A stretch of DNA of 64,000 nt, from NCBI RefSeq assembly GCF_006345805.1, contig NC_043015.1, forward strand, positions 42,842,001 through 42,906,000. The letters run 5' to 3'. Both the position numbers and the translations under genes were made by a program. The notes under the pieces are model-generated. The model had not been told where the DNA came from. It saw nothing but the letters and a program-made list of their open reading frames with translations, and did not search any database. Source of the stretch: Octopus sinensis (Eukaryota). Of the stretch, positions 3,969 to 50,031 are shown in pieces (positions within the stretch are counted from its first letter, which is position 1; every line of letters starts with the position of its first letter).

Positions 3969-5238
3969 CATATAAATAGATATTAAAGAGAGAGAGTTAG
4001 GTTATATTCATTTTAAATACGGTATGGTGTAATGTTGTAATGTGATGGTGATTTGACTGTTATTTCTAGGAGACTAAGCGAACTCAGAAAGCGCTTCGTG
4101 GTCCAACACATTTATATTCGTCCGGATCTTAAAATCGACTTCCATAAATATTTCGTAATAGTTTCAATTAATATTATTGTTAATCATTTGCTGAGTCCAT
4201 AAAAATATAATTTAGGAATTACAGAATATAAAACGCGATTGTTTCGATTTAATTACACCATCTGGCATACATTTCATGAATATACGTTATTAATTAATTA
4301 ATAATTAATTTCATATACGTGTGTGTGTGTGTGTGTTATACATACACAAATCTAGATTTTCACTTTTTTTCCTTTTTTCCTTTTTATGTTGAAATTGGCT
4401 TTCAGAAATATTTTGAATTATTTTTTTTTATTATTGTTGATGTTTGTAAGCAGAAAAAAAAAATAAATAAACAAGCCAAACTACACGTGAGTGTGTAAGC
4501 AAATATTTATAAATAAATTGAGAGGGTTGCTTTTTTAATTGATTTTTTAAAAGTAAATATTTTGAATAATTAATATTTCTTATCGACAACGTAAAATGAG
4601 ACGAATTTGCCAATATTCATATATACCAATGCACAAACAGTTATACGTAATATGTACATATATATATATATATAGGAGAGGGGTTAGTTCATGAGGAAGA
4701 AGAAAATCCGAAATTGAAGGGAGGGCGAAAAATCGCCAAAAAAAAAAACCCCGAAAATTTTGTAAAAAGAAAAGTTTGAAATTTTTCACAAAACTAAATT
4801 GTGACCCCCTTTGTATGAAAAACAGCAGAAGAATGATGAAGTTGGGGAGGCAAATTCCTTGCACACAAGAGTAGCGATAGCTGTTTCAAAACATCATCTT
4901 TTCTTTCCTTTAATTGATTTTCAGAAATATTTGGTAAGTTATTCTGCAGCCGATTACAATTAAACAAGCTAAACTACAGGTATGCATATGACATATATAA
5001 ATATATATTATTGTTGTCTGGAGATGCATAGATCTCAGGGATGTTCTGATGTATCTACAGCATAAATGACGTTACTGGGGGTGTTGGAGGGTTTCAGAGG
5101 TCTTTCGGCATCATCAGCCCCCCAACCCCACGGCTACAACTTAGCCCAGTTGACCCAGCCAGCGAGGCTGGGTCATCCATACCACCTAGTTATGAGTAAG
5201 GCACTGGTGCCTGCTCTCTTCATCCGAGGCCATCAAGA

Positions 5239-14995: not shown

Positions 14996-15204
14996 GTTGT
15001 TTATATGAAACCGACAGCAAGGTACTCGTCTGCTGTATTCGTAACTTCTCGACAGGAGAGTTCCACTATCCAATTTAACGCGCGCCGTGTGGCCTTCCTT
15101 TCTCTTTCGCCGGTCATAAACGGTGTAGATTCATACAAGGTAAAAGTCGATATATTTATACACATATATATATATTTTATTTTGTATTGAACTCACTATC
15201 AACA

Positions 15205-16863
15205 ATGTCTGATACGTGGAGTGATATCCAAGCTGCCAAAACGAAGCAGAGCAGCATGAGAGCCAAACTGTTAGAAAGGAAACGAAAAAGAGAAGGTATG
15301 GTTGCTGAAATGACAAATGCCGAGTCGTCCAGTTCGGGCTCTTTGTCGGCCGCTGGCATTGCTCAAAGTCAAACACCCCGTGTACCGTCGCCTACCCTTG
15401 CTCCGGATAGCTCTGTTAAAACCGAATACATTAAAGTCGATGCCGAAATCAAAAAGAAGCTATTGCTTGTGTTGTGTGATATAAACCTAGACATACCTTG
15501 TAATGCCACTCAGATCGCGGAGCACACATCTAAAATGTTAGGAAGAGAAGTGAAGCTGATCGTCATTGAAGATCTGTTACAGCAATTGTCCAGTCAGCAG
15601 TTACTTAGCATCGTTTCGAAAGAATCTAAAGATCAAAGCCACATCACCGTAACCTCTCTCGATCTGAGTAAACTCAGCGCTGTTACGAACACTTCGGAGA
15701 ATTCCTCAAACAAAAGAAAGAGAGAAAACGATGATCAAGACAGTTCGGAAAATTCAACGAAACACCTCAAATCATCATCATCTTCATTGAACCAGCCCGA
15801 TGACAGCATCGAGAGTTTACTTTCCATGCAATCAGCGAAAGAAAGAGAACATAAGAAAGTACAAGAAGAAATCTTACAATTACTTAGCAAACCTACAGCG
15901 AAAGAACAATTTCTTGTTGAGAAGTTTAGTTCTCAGGGCGGTGCTCAGCTGCAAGAATTTTGCCAATATGGAACGAAAGACGAATGTATGAAAACCAACC
16001 AGGTATCCGAACCTTGTAAAAGACTTCATTTCAGAAAAATCATTCATAAACACACAGATGAATCGCTTGGTGATTGCTCGTTTCTTAATACATGTTTTCA
16101 TATGGATACATGCAAGTATGTTCACTACGAGATAGACTACCCCGAGAAGAAAAACCAACTGGCTTTATTGAAGAAAGAACTGTCCTTAAGTAAAAAGACT
16201 GGTATGAAGGATGGCACCGTGACCATGTTTCCGCCTCAGTGGGTCCAGTGTGATTTGCGATATTTCGATATGTCCGTTCTGGGGAAATGTGCCGTAGTTA
16301 TGGCTGATCCACCCTGGGATATTCACATGGAGTTACCTTATGGAACCATGAGTGACGATGAGATGAGAAAATTGGATGTACCTAATCTTCAAGACGACGG
16401 TTTCCTGTTTTTGTGGGTGACGGGCAGAGCTATGGAGTTGGGAAGAGAATGTCTGGAGCTGTGGGGTTACAAAAGAGTTGACGAATTGATCTGGGTGAAA
16501 ACGAACCAACTTCAGAGAATCATAAGAACTGGACGTACCGGCCATTGGCTAAACCACGGCAAAGAACACTGCCTTGTTGGAGTTAAAGGTGATCCAAAAG
16601 GCGTGAACAGGGGCCTCGACTGTGATGTGATCGTCGCAGAAGTTCGAGCCACAAGTCATAAACCGGACGAAATCTATGGCATTATAGAACGACTTTCACC
16701 TGGAACTAGGAAAGTCGAACTGTTTGGACGACCGCACAATGTACAACCAAACTGGATTACCTTAGGGAACCAAGTGGATGGAGTACGGCTTAAAGATCCC
16801 GATGTTGTGACAAGTTTTCAAAAACGCTACCCCAATGGAAACTGTATGGAACCTCCGAAATAA
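15205..16863 (+). CDS. METTL3: N6-adenosine methyltransferase catalytic subunit (MT-A70), complete 552-aa CDS in one exon
   Basis: Starts MSDTWSDIQAAK (METTL3-like N-terminus), basic NLS-like RKRKRE, two CCCH zinc fingers (EFCQYGTKDEC...CKRLHF; GDCSFLNTCFHMDTCKYVHY), catalytic DPPW, WVKTNQLQRIIRTGRTGHWLNHGKEHCLVG, ELFGRPHN. No stops or frameshifts; TAA at 16861-16863. Confidence 0.97.
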   Translation: MSDTWSDIQAAKTKQSSMRAKLLERKRKREGMVAEMTNAESSSSGSLSAAGIAQSQTPRVPSPTLAPDSSVKTEYIKVDAEIKKKLLLVLCDINLDIPCNATQIAEHTSKMLGREVKLIVIEDLLQQLSSQQLLSIVSKESKDQSHITVTSLDLSKLSAVTNTSENSSNKRKRENDDQDSSENSTKHLKSSSSSLNQPDDSIESLLSMQSAKEREHKKVQEEILQLLSKPTAKEQFLVEKFSSQGGAQLQEFCQYGTKDECMKTNQVSEPCKRLHFRKIIHKHTDESLGDCSFLNTCFHMDTCKYVHYEIDYPEKKNQLALLKKELSLSKKTGMKDGTVTMFPPQWVQCDLRYFDMSVLGKCAVVMADPPWDIHMELPYGTMSDDEMRKLDVPNLQDDGFLFLWVTGRAMELGRECLELWGYKRVDELIWVKTNQLQRIIRTGRTGHWLNHGKEHCLVGVKGDPKGVNRGLDCDVIVAEVRATSHKPDEIYGIIERLSPGTRKVELFGRPHNVQPNWITLGNQVDGVRLKDPDVVTSFQKRYPNGNCMEPPK

Positions 16864-47260: not shown

Positions 47261-48678
47261 TAAATATATTATGCACACACACACATATATATTACCTGTA
47301 TATATCATAAATGATATTATATATACTTATATTGCATATAAATTACATTACATATACAACCACATTGAATCCTTTTTTTTTTTTAATAAGAACATGACCA
47401 CGAGTAGTAACTGGTGATCCCAATTCTCAATTGCACAGCTATTTGGTTGATCAGACATCAGTCTGGACCTTGGACAATGTAGGACTGAAAAGGTCGAAGT
47501 ATATTTTTTTTAGTAAAAAAAATGAATTTTTTTTTTACTTTGAAAAAAAAAAAAAAAGAGAGAGAGGGAGAGAGATAAAGCAAAAAAAAAAAATGTAGAA
47601 GAGGTAAAAAAAAAAGACAAGTAATTAGTTAGTTAGGAAGACAATGTAGATAATAAATAGTGATTTCTTACTCAGGCACAAGGCCACAAATTATCATAGC
47701 AGTATGGAGGCAGAGATGTTGGAGTTGTGGTTTCAAATGTTGGGGGTGAATGAAGATAGTATGGCATAGAAGACGTTTCGTAATTAAAAAAAATTTTTTG
47801 TCTTTTTTTCCTCTCAGTTGGTTTTTCACACTTTTTTGTTTTTTTTAATATTTAAAGGTCGTTAGCGTGACATCATATTATTATGAAATGAATTATGTTT
47901 TAATTTTTAACCGGGGATTAGATATAAGAAATGAGGATGATGGTGGTGGTGGAGGGAGAGTGGGTAAGAAAAAAATAAAAAAATAAAAAAAAATGAATGG
48001 TGGACTCTGCTCACCGGGAGCCAGCCCCTTCTTGTACAATGTTCACCATGAGATATTAACGGGAGAAAAAAAAAACTAATAAAGATATAATTGAAAAACG
48101 AAATTAAAACCAAGTGAAATGAATATTCATAAAAGAAAAACAGACAAAAAAGCGAAAATTAAAAATGCAAAATAAAAATAAAACAGAAAAAAAAAAAACT
48201 CGAAGAACTAAATCGATAGGATTCAAAAAAAGGACAATTTACAAAAAAATTCTTAATTTCATTTCTAAGAATTTTAGAACATTATTTCTTCTGATCTAGT
48301 AAATATATAAATTTAGATTTCATACACACACACACACACACACACATATTTATAATCCCAGGAATACGCCCTATGATCTTAAAATATTAATAAATTCCAT
48401 CCAAGGGACTGTTATTAGTTTTACTATATTTATCCTACATTATATCGGCACAGCTTGGTGTGACCCCAAAAAAACTGGTATTGCCAAATGGCATCATTAG
48501 GCTGTGGTCAACACAATAAAACAGGAGCTTTCATATACATACTGAAAACGTTTCCTGTAAACAAACTTAGAGGATATATATATATACTGTTGTGTCTGGG
48601 GAGAGTCATTCTCTTTTAGTGCCTTATAATTTAACACACTCACCGGTAAAATTTCCACTTATTTCTTATTTTTATTTT

Positions 48679-48715
48679 CTAAAATTTTCATTGCGTCTTG
48701 CAACCTTTTCAATAG
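48679..48715 (-). ncRNA. Minimal hammerhead motif, U3-A8 core variant, at a foldback axis
   Basis: Minus: CUA UUGAAAA G GUUGC aagac GCAAU GAAA AU UU UAG; palindromic AAAAUUUU. Confidence 0.55.
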
Positions 48716-49643
48716 TGACTATTTTAGAAAATAAAAATAAGAAATAAGTGGAGATTTTACCGGTGAGTGTGTTAAAAGGCACTAAAAGAGAATGACTCTC
48801 CCCAGATACAACAGAATATGGTCCAACACACGAACTCATATAAAGAATCTTGCAAACCAAATCCAAAAATGAAATATATATATATATATATACATACACA
48901 CACATACATACATACATACATATATATGTATGTGTGTATATATATGTGTATGTGCATATATACTTTTTAAAATTTATATATATACACATATATATATATA
49001 TATACCTCACTCCTACACATATATATATATTATGTGTGCATACATACATATAAATTTATACACACTGATTTACAACCTTGAAAGAATGGTATCTTCGTAT
49101 GTCTCAAACACAAAATGAAAATAACTAGATTCTACATTTCACTGTAGAATTTATCCTAAGTTGTTTGTAGAACTGGTCTTCTTAATCTTTGAGTGAAAGC
49201 TGTCATACCTTAAATATATCTTTGCATACATATATATACACACATACATATATATGTGCATAATACATGAGCATGTAATTCTGGCTATTATGTTGATAAT
49301 ATATGATACTACCTCTTAGAAATATATATTTTGGTATAGTTCATAATACATAGTATATCTGTAAATTATATATTATACATAGTATATATATATGATTTAG
49401 TATATGTACTATATAGATTCTAGCACAACTCATCACATTTCTCAAAGTTCCTAAATTATTATAACACTAACTATACAGTTTAGTATTGAAATAATAGAGC
49501 ATATATGTCTATATATATATATATATAATGTAGAAGGATGAAAAGAGACACACGAGTTGATATATATGGGAAAAAAAAGTCACGCTAGAAAATGCTAAAA
49601 TAATTTTATAAAAAAAATTTCAGTACCGGTTTCAGTCATTGAA

Positions 49644-49680
49644 TTGAAAAAGTCTCAATGACTGAAACCGGTACTGAAAT
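49644..49680 (+). ncRNA. Minimal hammerhead motif, U3-A8 core variant, at a foldback axis (5' strand of stem I lost at the junction)
   Basis: UUGAAAA AGUC ucaau GACU GAAA CCGG UA CUGAAAU; palindromic ACCGGU, GUA triplet. Confidence 0.55.
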
Positions 49681-50031
49681 GGTTTTATAAAATTATTTTA
49701 GCATTTCCTATCTTGACTTTTTTTCTATAGATATATATATATAACATACATACACATTACACATATATATGTATAACATTTCTCTTCTCTCTCTCTACAC
49801 ACACACACACATGTACAAGCTAAGTAAGATTGAATTTGCAAGTGTCATTTGTATTGGTTTTTTTTTATCTTTGCCTGATGAGCTGAACATGGGTCACATT
49901 TAATATGCCGTAATAATATTACATAATCATTTATACTAAAGATGTGTCTGAACCACATATGTATACATGTAACAACATCCACCTCCAATTTTGTACTTAG
50001 CACTATATATGTATATACATACACTCATATA

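What the first reader, a model, noticed from the sequence alone, without database searches (positions are those of the whole stretch)
49561..49736. Second, sequence-unrelated foldback with its axis inside a U3-A8 hammerhead
Seen: about 80-bp inverted arms flanked by (TA)n. The right arm starts at the core (UUGAAAA AGUC..GACU GAAA CCGG UA), and the left arm is the antisense copy truncated in the stem II loop. Its sequence differs from the 48.6-kb element but the architecture and 3-8 swap are the same, 1 kb away. Inference: a recurrent mechanism, and U3-A8 present in more than one family.
Basis: partly seen in the sequence, partly recalled or inferred. Interest (0 to 1): 0.75.

Follow-up and report, generated by a model that had tools for sequence, protein, structure and literature searches.

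The report
Penelope retroelement stub with variant hammerhead
The foldback is two cut-short copies of the tail end of a Penelope-like jumping gene joined head to head, and that tail carries a hammerhead-ribozyme-like motif with a U-A instead of C-G core pair, a variant already in print, so it is an ordinary example that likely cannot cut itself in this broken copy.

Summary
Window 49561-49736 is a strong foldback (DNA fold z = -17). The right arm starts exactly at UUGAAAA, and the left arm is the antisense copy cut off in the stem II loop.

It is not a unit of its own. It is two 5'-truncated 3' ends of a dispersed repeat with at least 3,200 copies, joined head to head inside a (TA)n run, with a 33-nt "tail" at one end only. 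Longer copies of the same repeat follow an ORF with reverse transcriptase plus GIY-YIG endonuclease, which makes it a Penelope-like element (PLE). Inverted 5'-truncated copies, one-sided tails and (TA)n targets are the published PLE insertion signature.

Other support for a hammerhead:
- Stem II shows a compensatory change between subfamilies (A-U, G·U, G-C).
- One subfamily gets a sub-threshold Rfam hammerhead hit (E = 0.003).
- The predicted dimer fold is a double hammerhead.

The 48.6-kb neighbour also carries a U3-A8 minimal hammerhead motif.

The axis falling inside the motif is incidental in this family. Natural U3-A8 hammerheads, including in PLEs, were published in 2011 and 2014, and this scan has noted them in other genomes. 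Cleavage is untested. This is a new member of a known kind.

The parts
49510..49527 (.). (TA)n run on the left, probably part of the microsatellite target
   Evidence: Sequence read. (TA)n insertion bias of PLEs is described in PMC8557442 (passages).
49528..49560 (-). 33-nt 'tail' extension beyond the element's 3' end, present at this end only
   Evidence: It aligns to the tail of family copy L046. The same tail sits at exactly one end in 7 of 7 head-to-head pairs and in 12 of 14 pairs (2 with none, 0 with both).
49561..49642 (-). Left copy: antisense, 5'-truncated 3' end of the Penelope-like element. It covers family positions +11 (stem II loop) to the 3' terminus. It keeps the stem II 3' strand, GAAA, CCGG, UA and CUG in antisense but lacks the UUGAAAA core.
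   Evidence: Local alignment to L046; inverted-repeat arms.
49643..49643 (.). Single A between the two copies (the junction)
49644..49734 (+). Right copy: sense, 5'-truncated 3' end of the element, from U3 of the motif to the 3' terminus
   Evidence: Alignment to L046, family positions 0-93. Most genomic matches to the finding cover only this arm (query 84-176) at 94-96% identity.
49644..49676 (+). Incomplete hammerhead-like motif: U3-U4-G5-A6-A7-A8-A9, stem II AGUC/GACU with loop UCAAU, G12-A13-A14, A15.1, palindromic CCGG, U16.1, A17, then CUG. The predicted cleavage site would lie between 49673 and 49674. The stem I 5' strand (CAG in full copies) is missing; GAA stands there instead.
   Evidence: Sequence; family alignment and pair counts; Rfam hit on subfamily B only, none on this copy.
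49735..49743 (.). (TA) run on the right, continuing the element's terminal ATATATA
   Evidence: Family copies end in ...TTTTTTTCCATATATA followed by a (TA)n run of variable length.

Best explanation
The foldback is two 5'-truncated copies of the 3' end of a Penelope-like retrotransposon lying head to head in a (TA)n run, and it was likely made in one insertion event by the element's reverse transcriptase and GIY-YIG endonuclease.

Shown:
- The arms are family copies truncated at position 0 and position +11.
- One end carries the family's 33-nt tail.
- Longer copies of the same repeat lie about 720 nt downstream of an RT plus GIY-YIG ORF.
- Head-to-head pairs with variable axes and one-sided tails are common in the family.

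Inferred from the literature on PLEs:
- The endonuclease nicks the microsatellite target.
- cDNA synthesis starts at the RNA 3' end and stops or switches template early, giving an inverted truncated partner.
- Resolution of the intermediate leaves the tail.

The 3' region of the element carries a type-I hammerhead-like motif: stem I CAG/CUG plus UU/AA, core UUGAAAA...GAAA, a 4-bp stem II, and a one-pair stem III capped by palindromic CCGG. The C3-G8 core pair is replaced by U3-A8.

By analogy with published animal type-I and PLE hammerheads, it would act only as a dimer of two copies in one transcript, pairing ACCGGU with ACCGGU. Whether it cleaves is untested.

The window copy lacks the stem I 5' strand in one arm and the whole core in the other, so it is predicted to be inert.
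For: Family and copy number:
- An exact 31-mer 3' of the motif occurs 778 times; the reversed control occurs 0 times.
- The U3-A8 motif pattern occurs 3,215 times.

Retroelement behaviour:
- The 3' end is fixed and the 5' ends vary.

Autonomous partner:
- L143 has GIY-YIG at 25.4 bits. L141 and L142 have RVT_1 just under the cut-off.
- In L139 the motif core lies at 4367 on the ORF strand, with an inverted copy bearing the tail on the left.

Insertion signature:
- The tail is at exactly one end in 7 of 7 pairs and in 12 of 14 pairs.
- (TA)n flanks are seen throughout.
- This matches the passages of PMC8557442 read: 5' truncation, an adjacent inverted 5'-truncated copy, a 30-40-bp tail often at one end, (TA)n bias, and the hammerhead near the 3' end.

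Hammerhead reading:
- The predicted CAG is present.
- The 10.1-11.1 pair is A-U in 44, G-C in 23, G-U in 13 and other in 6 of 87 distinct sequences (1 gapped), while loop II varies from 5 to 7 nt.
- None of the 13 core columns differs between subfamilies, whereas the flanks do.
- Rfam Hammerhead_HH9 matches subfamily B copy L062 at 20.9 bits, E = 0.0029. The alignment runs through stem I, the core, stem II with its CAAAA loop, GAAACC and GGU-CUG.
- The predicted dimer MFE is the double hammerhead: -27.1 against 2 x -9.8 kcal/mol for subfamily B, and -20.1 against 2 x -6.5 for subfamily A.

Literature:
- Natural U3-A8 covariation exists and such ribozymes are active in vitro (PMC3088659, passage).
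- A U3-A8 variant occurs in Schistosoma PLE hammerheads, and motifs lie 100-700 bp apart on opposite strands (PMC4209133, text parts 1-2).
Against: - No Rfam hammerhead model reaches its gathering score. The window, window 48400-50000 at E <= 10 and a full subfamily A copy at E <= 10 give no hammerhead hit at all. The subfamily B hit is 20.9 bits against a threshold of 52.
- The window's subfamily has A10.1-U11.1 instead of the highly conserved G-C.
- The stem II covariation amounts to one or two evolutionary events, not many.
- Copy-level conservation of the core (3.1% deviating letters) is not clearly better than that of flank columns that do not differ between subfamilies. This is as expected for neutral decay, so it does not prove selection.
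- Genomic copies end 62 nt beyond the predicted cleavage site, so cleavage does not define the template's 3' end.
- The GIY-YIG score in L139 is just under Pfam's cut-off.
- No RT/GIY-YIG ORF lies in the window itself. Pfam on 8 of the 68 ORFs listed there (the longer ones) gave only MT-A70.
Confidence: 0.85

Rival explanations
1. The hammerhead likeness is a chance resemblance in the A/U-rich 3' untranslated region of a retroelement; the RNA never was a ribozyme.
For: - Both core strings (UUGAAAA, GAAA) are A/U-rich in an A/T-rich genome.
- My relaxed descriptor hits 5 of 150 simulated 64-kb windows, which would mean on the order of a thousand chance hits genome-wide.
- Rfam thresholds are not met.
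Against: - The CAG stem I partner was predicted before it was seen, and it is there.
- There is a compensatory A-U / G-U / G-C change in stem II.
- The Rfam HH9 alignment covers the stem II loop as well as the core, at E = 0.0029.
- The palindromic CCGG gives a predicted double hammerhead.
- The motif sits where PLEs are reported to carry hammerheads (PMC8557442 and PMC4209133).
Confidence: 0.1
2. The hammerhead, or its stem II hairpin, itself directs foldback formation. For example, cDNA snaps back or the polymerase switches template at the hairpin, so the axis falls inside the motif for a reason.
For: - Both neighbouring foldbacks in the window have their axis at the motif.
- Other arms start at +10, +11 and +16: L077 and L093, and the partner of L046.
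- In the 48.6-kb family, every one of the 13 copies aligned has the motif at the axis.
Against: - In the sample of 100 copies taken without regard to 5' extent, starts are spread evenly: 7 in the 44 nt from U3 to the anchor, 13 in the 66 nt upstream and 80 further upstream (by eye).
- Axes of other head-to-head pairs lie 20 to more than 100 nt upstream of the motif.
- A simple snap-back at stem II would remove the UUGAAAA core from the product, yet the window copy keeps it.
- In the 48.6-kb family the motif sits at the axis because the short sense unit begins about 10 nt before it.
Confidence: 0.08
3. The foldback is a miniature inverted-repeat DNA transposon (MITE) with TA target-site duplications.
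For: It has inverted arms of about 80 nt flanked by TA repeats.
Against: - Most family copies are single arms continuing into about 400 nt of non-palindromic upstream sequence, with variable 5' ends.
- Axes vary between pairs.
- The same sequence is the 3' end of an RT/GIY-YIG element.
- A tail lies at one end only.
Confidence: 0.02
4. The family is a retrozyme: short tandem repeats transcribed, cut by the hammerhead and circularised.
For: It has a type-I hammerhead architecture with a short, palindromic stem III, like the animal retrozyme hammerheads (PMC7229834, passages).
Against: - Copies are dispersed, not in arrays. Among the 100 sampled copies I saw two same-orientation neighbours 216 and 304 bp apart.
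- An autonomous RT/GIY-YIG partner carries the same end.
Confidence: 0.03

Closest known systems
Hammerhead motifs in the pseudo-LTRs / 3' regions of Penelope-like elements, including the U3-A8 variant of the Schistosoma mansoni Cercyon elements (Cervera & De la Pena 2014, PMC4209133; text parts 1-2 read)
   Same: - Type-I motif in the terminal repeat region of an RT/GIY-YIG element.
- U3-A8 in place of C3-G8.
- Palindromic 15.2-16.2 region that implies action as a dimer.
- Thousands of mostly solitary, truncated copies.
- Pairs on opposite strands 100-700 bp apart.
   Different: - Helix II here is 4 bp, not 7-8 bp.
[quoted passage not shown]
- A 4-nt palindromic loop 3 (CCGG) is present.
- The window's subfamily has A10.1-U11.1.
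- Overall it looks more like a 'canonical' animal type-I hammerhead with a swapped core pair than like the minimal form.
- The 48.6-kb neighbour, by contrast, fits the minimal form well.
Natural U3-A8 covariation in hammerhead cores (Perreault et al. 2011, PMC3088659; passages read)
   Same: C3-G8 is replaced by U3-A8. The paper states that such ribozymes were already proven active in vitro.
   Different: Those were scattered examples found by comparative searches. Here U3-A8 is the fixed state of a repeat family of over 3,000 copies.
Penelope-like element insertion structure (Craig et al. 2021, PMC8557442; passages read)
   Same: High 5' truncation, an inverted 5'-truncated copy adjacent to the sense copy, a 30-40-bp tail often at one end only, insertion into (TA)n, and the hammerhead near the 3' end.
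   Different: In the window both copies are extremely short (about 82 and 91 nt), so the product looks like a small stand-alone foldback.
Rfam Hammerhead_HH9 (RF02275) and canonical animal type-I hammerheads
   Same: Subfamily B aligns over the whole model: stem I CAG/CUG, the core, stem II with a CAAAA-type loop, and GAAACC...GGU.
   Different: The score is 20.9 bits against a gathering score of 52. It has U3 and A8, stem III is reduced to one pair plus CCGG, and stem I is shorter.

Membership tests
Hammerhead ribozyme (type I) | Conserved core letters U4 G5 A6 N7 A9, G12 A13 A14, A15.1-U16.1, H17 | tested here: met
   All are present in the family majority and in the window's right arm. Majority fractions are 0.94-0.99 over 94 copies.
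Hammerhead ribozyme (type I) | C3 and G8 (which pair in the active fold) | tested here: not met
   The letters are U3 and A8. There are 3,215 U-A against 4 C-G pattern matches. In the subfamily A 25-mer the counts are UA 733, UG 33, CA 14 and CG 3. The pair is kept as U-A, a published natural covariation (PMC3088659).
Hammerhead ribozyme (type I) | Three helices around the core, supported by covariation | tested here: met
   - Stem I: CAG/CUG plus UU/AA.
- Stem II: 4 bp, with A-U 44 / G-C 23 / G-U 13.
- Stem III: A-U plus palindromic CCGG.
- 88.9% of cells are paired, against 17-37% when the partner is slid by 1-3 columns.
- The covariation amounts to only one or two events.
Hammerhead ribozyme (type I) | Score at or above an Rfam hammerhead model's gathering threshold | tested here: not met
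   There is no hit on the window or on a full subfamily A copy. A subfamily B copy scores 20.9 bits against 52 for RF02275. Canonical RF00163 hits elsewhere in the genome show the search works: 8 matches over the cut-off.
Hammerhead ribozyme (type I) | Site-specific self-cleavage after H17 | not testable with these tools
   Needs a bench assay. The RNA reads laid here are described under Tried and rejected.
Penelope-like element (EN+) | Single ORF with reverse transcriptase followed by GIY-YIG endonuclease | tested here: met
   L139 ORF (637 aa) has RVT_1 at residues 116-303 and GIY-YIG at 541-628. L141-L143 carry partial ORFs with the same domains. This holds for longer family copies, not for anything in the window.
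Penelope-like element (EN+) | Insertion signature: 5' truncation, inverted 5'-truncated partner, one-sided 30-40-bp tail, microsatellite target | tested here: met
   The window copy shows all four features.
Minimal hammerhead (min-HHR) of animal PLEs | [quoted passage not shown] | tested here: inconclusive
   - Palindromic region: yes (CCGG).
- G10.1-C11.1: only in subfamily B.
- Extra nucleotide: none.
- Helix II: 4 bp.
- Loop 3: present.
- The 48.6-kb element does have the extra G, a 5-bp helix II and AAUU without a loop.
Metazoan retrozyme | Short tandem arrays of 150-450-bp units, each with a hammerhead | tested here: not met
   Copies are dispersed. Two same-orientation neighbours were seen among the 100 sampled copies.
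MITE (DNA transposon derivative) | Uniform element bounded by terminal inverted repeats and target-site duplications | tested here: not met
   Most copies are single arms with variable 5' ends, and the axis varies between pairs.

The most novel reading that the evidence does not exclude
U3-A8 is not a tolerated defect but the selected, working core of a very successful Penelope-like lineage (over 3,000 copies). It was fixed independently in two unrelated repeat families of one genome. This would point to a functional advantage of the weaker U-A core pair, for example cleavage restricted to dimers or slowed to suit the element's life cycle.
Probability: 0.15. Interest if true: 0.5.

Novelty: new member of a known kind. 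Interest (0 to 1): 0.3.

Why it matters
It shows that a small, striking foldback with a ribozyme-like centre can be fully explained as the by-product of Penelope-like element insertion. It also adds one more genome, and two repeat families within it, to the published cases where the hammerhead core pair C3-G8 is replaced by U3-A8.

If the U-A core were shown to cleave in these elements, the family would be a convenient natural series for studying how that pair tunes activity. It contains U-A, U·G, C·A and rare C-G copies, and A-U, G·U and G-C at 10.1-11.1. As it stands, it mainly serves annotation: such foldbacks should be masked as PLE fragments, not called as MITEs or microRNA hairpins.

Tried and rejected
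RNA evidence:
- The look-up of sequencing runs listed no holder on record as RNA.
- Three raw-read RNA runs with the same species label as one holder (coded organism B) were laid on a subfamily A copy, L017:1250-1700. 95, 88 and 70 reads were laid from about 6% of each run. Depth over the motif was about 6-25, on both strands. There were no joints and no place where molecules begin or end. Reads cross the predicted site. This is too thin and unspecific to bear on cleavage.
- The same runs laid on the subfamily B end of L139 gave 18, 7 and 5 partial reads. This was uninformative; that organism seems to hold mainly the subfamily A type.

Rfam:
- The gathering-threshold search of the window found nothing.
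- The E <= 10 searches on the window and on a subfamily A copy gave only hairpin and low-complexity noise such as microRNA families. I rejected these as artefacts of the palindrome.

- Core columns deviate in 3.1% of letters, against 6.7% in the 3' flank and 18% in the 5' flank.
- The flank excess comes from a few columns that differ between subfamilies. Copy-level decay is neutral, so the test has little power here.

3-8 association in subfamily A:
- Observed 3 C-G copies against 0.8 expected, Fisher p = 0.039. This is weak. Two of the three share other variants and may be one small lineage.

Other:
- I looked for an RT/GIY-YIG ORF in the window. Pfam on 8 of its 68 listed ORFs gave only MT-A70.
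- I did not classify the PLE clade or identify the host species.
- One paper reading failed on a too-short search term and was repeated without it.

Full report
**What is there**

Window 49561-49736 is a real and strong foldback.
- Two ungapped inverted pairs are found: 54 nt at 85% and 45 nt at 82% complementary, with 12 nt between the inner arms.
- As single-stranded DNA it folds at -58 kcal/mol, against -11.9 +/- 2.7 for 200 shuffles.
- (TA) runs lie on both sides.

**It is part of a large dispersed family**

- A search of the window's own 2.7-Gb genome found 1,059 candidates. 40 were scored, giving 92 matches, and most matched only the right arm (query 84-176, 94-96% identity). That match starts exactly at UUGAAAA.
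- An exact 31-mer lying 3' of the motif occurs 778 times.
- The motif pattern with U3 and A8 occurs 3,215 times.
- Aligned copies share a fixed 3' end...TTTTTTTCCATATATA followed by a (TA)n run of variable length. Their 5' ends vary.
- The longest non-coding copies are about 0.5 kb.

**The family is the 3' end of a Penelope-like element**

- Many motif copies lie 2-5 kb apart on opposite strands. Six such regions were fetched.
[quoted passage not shown] L141-L143 have partial ORFs with the same domains.
- In L139 the motif core lies about 720 nt after the stop codon on the same strand. An inverted, truncated copy with a tail lies on the left.
- The 0.5-kb copies correspond to the last 0.5 kb of this 3' untranslated region.

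**The foldback is the ordinary insertion pattern of such elements**

- In the window, the right copy covers family positions 0-93 and the left copy covers +11 to the end. A single A joins them, and a 33-nt extension (49528-49560) lies beyond the left end only.
- The same tail is at exactly one end in 7 of 7 head-to-head pairs among the first loci. In a second sample it is at one end in 12 of 14 pairs, with 2 having none and 0 having both.
- Craig et al. 2021 (PMC8557442, passages) describe exactly this for PLEs: strong 5' truncation, an inverted 5'-truncated copy next to the sense copy, a 30-40-bp tail often at one end, insertion into (TA)n, and a hammerhead near the 3' end.
- The axis is not tied to the motif. 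In other pairs it lies 20 to more than 100 nt upstream.
- I fetched the first 100 genome-order matches to the 31-mer, a sample blind to 5' extent. Of these, 7 start in the 44 nt between U3 and the anchor, 13 in the 66 nt upstream and 80 further upstream (read by eye).

**Is the motif a hammerhead?**

Evidence for:
This pairs with the CUG after GGUA; G-C is seen in 75, A-U in 85 and C-G in 76 of 87 distinct sequences.
- The family has subfamilies. The window's type has AGUC-UCAAU-GACU. A second type has GGUC-UCAAA(A)U-GACC, and intermediates have GGUC...GACU. So the 10.1-11.1 pair runs A-U (44), G·U (13), G-C (23), while the loop changes length.
- None of the 13 core columns differs between subfamilies.
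- A subfamily B copy gets a hit to Rfam Hammerhead_HH9 at 20.9 bits, E = 0.0029. The alignment covers stem I, the core, stem II with its loop, and GAAACC...GGU-CUG.
- The predicted dimer of two copies is the classical double hammerhead, with ACCGGU pairing with ACCGGU and stem I formed in trans. It is 7 kcal/mol better than two monomers.

Evidence against:
- No Rfam model reaches its threshold, and the window's subfamily gives no hit at all.
- A10.1-U11.1 is unusual.
- The covariation amounts to one or two events.
- Genomic copies extend 62 nt beyond the predicted cut, so cleavage does not set the template's 3' end.
- RNA reads were too few to tell.

I put the odds that this is a true hammerhead-derived motif at about 85%. 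Its activity is open.

**The window copy itself would be inert**

The right arm lacks the stem I 5' strand, and the left arm lacks the core.

**The neighbour at 48.6 kb**

- My descriptor finds on its minus strand CUA-UUGAAAA-G-GUUGC-AAGAC-GCAAU-GAAA-AU-UU-UAG. This is a U3-A8 motif with the extra nucleotide before helix II and no loop 3, which fits the published minimal PLE hammerhead.
- Its family has 2,290 candidates and is a uniform foldback of about 230 bp. It has a one-sided tail and keeps the motif in 12 of the 13 copies aligned; L151 is cut off in the core.
- So U3-A8 does occur in two unrelated families here.

**What is known**

- Perreault et al. 2011 state that C3 and G8 covary to U3 and A8 in several natural hammerheads, and that such ribozymes were already proven active in vitro (PMC3088659, passage).
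- Cervera and De la Pena 2014 report a U3-A8 variant with about 1,300 hits in Schistosoma PLEs, motifs on opposite strands 100-700 bp apart, and dimer-dependent, weak activity (PMC4209133).
- A full-text search for 'hammerhead' with 'U3-A8' found only that paper.
- Earlier notes of this scan describe the same kind of motif in seven other genomes.

**Verdict**

This is a new member of a known kind.

Noticed in passing
window 48587-48816 (motif on the minus strand, 48712 down to about 48676): The 48.6-kb foldback belongs to a separate, uniform family of about 230 bp (2,290 candidates). The short sense unit begins about 10 nt before a U3-A8 minimal-hammerhead-like motif with an extra G before helix II. 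Copies carry a tail of about 26 nt at one end only, and that tail shares TCGTGTGTT with the tail of the 49.6-kb family. It is probably a short non-autonomous passenger of a Penelope-like element.
   Followed up: partly
L031-L042 (own genome, e.g. G000:C13:29988995-29989039): The genome also holds canonical type-I hammerheads. 8 matches pass the RF00163 gathering score. They belong to a different repeat, of the form GUAC-CUGAAGA-GACCC...GGGUC-GAAAC-AUGU-GUC-GUAC.
   Followed up: no
L135, L136, L137 (own genome): Three independent insertions of the family carry the canonical C3-G8 core (CUGAAGA). Two of them share other variants and look older. They may represent the ancestral state or a small reverted lineage.
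   Followed up: partly
window 15079-16863 (+): An open frame of 594 aa with an MT-A70 (N6-adenosine methyltransferase) domain, E = 3.4e-61.
   Followed up: no
window 48400-50000: At a permissive threshold, Rfam calls both foldbacks and the nearby (TA/CA)n tracts as plant or animal microRNA precursor families, with E-values down to 2.5e-13 but far under the gathering scores. These are artefacts of long A/T-rich hairpins.
   Followed up: yes
L017:1527 and 1529; family column CCGG: The CCGG loop often reads CCAG or CTGG in copies and in RNA reads. This is the pattern expected from CpG decay.
   Followed up: no
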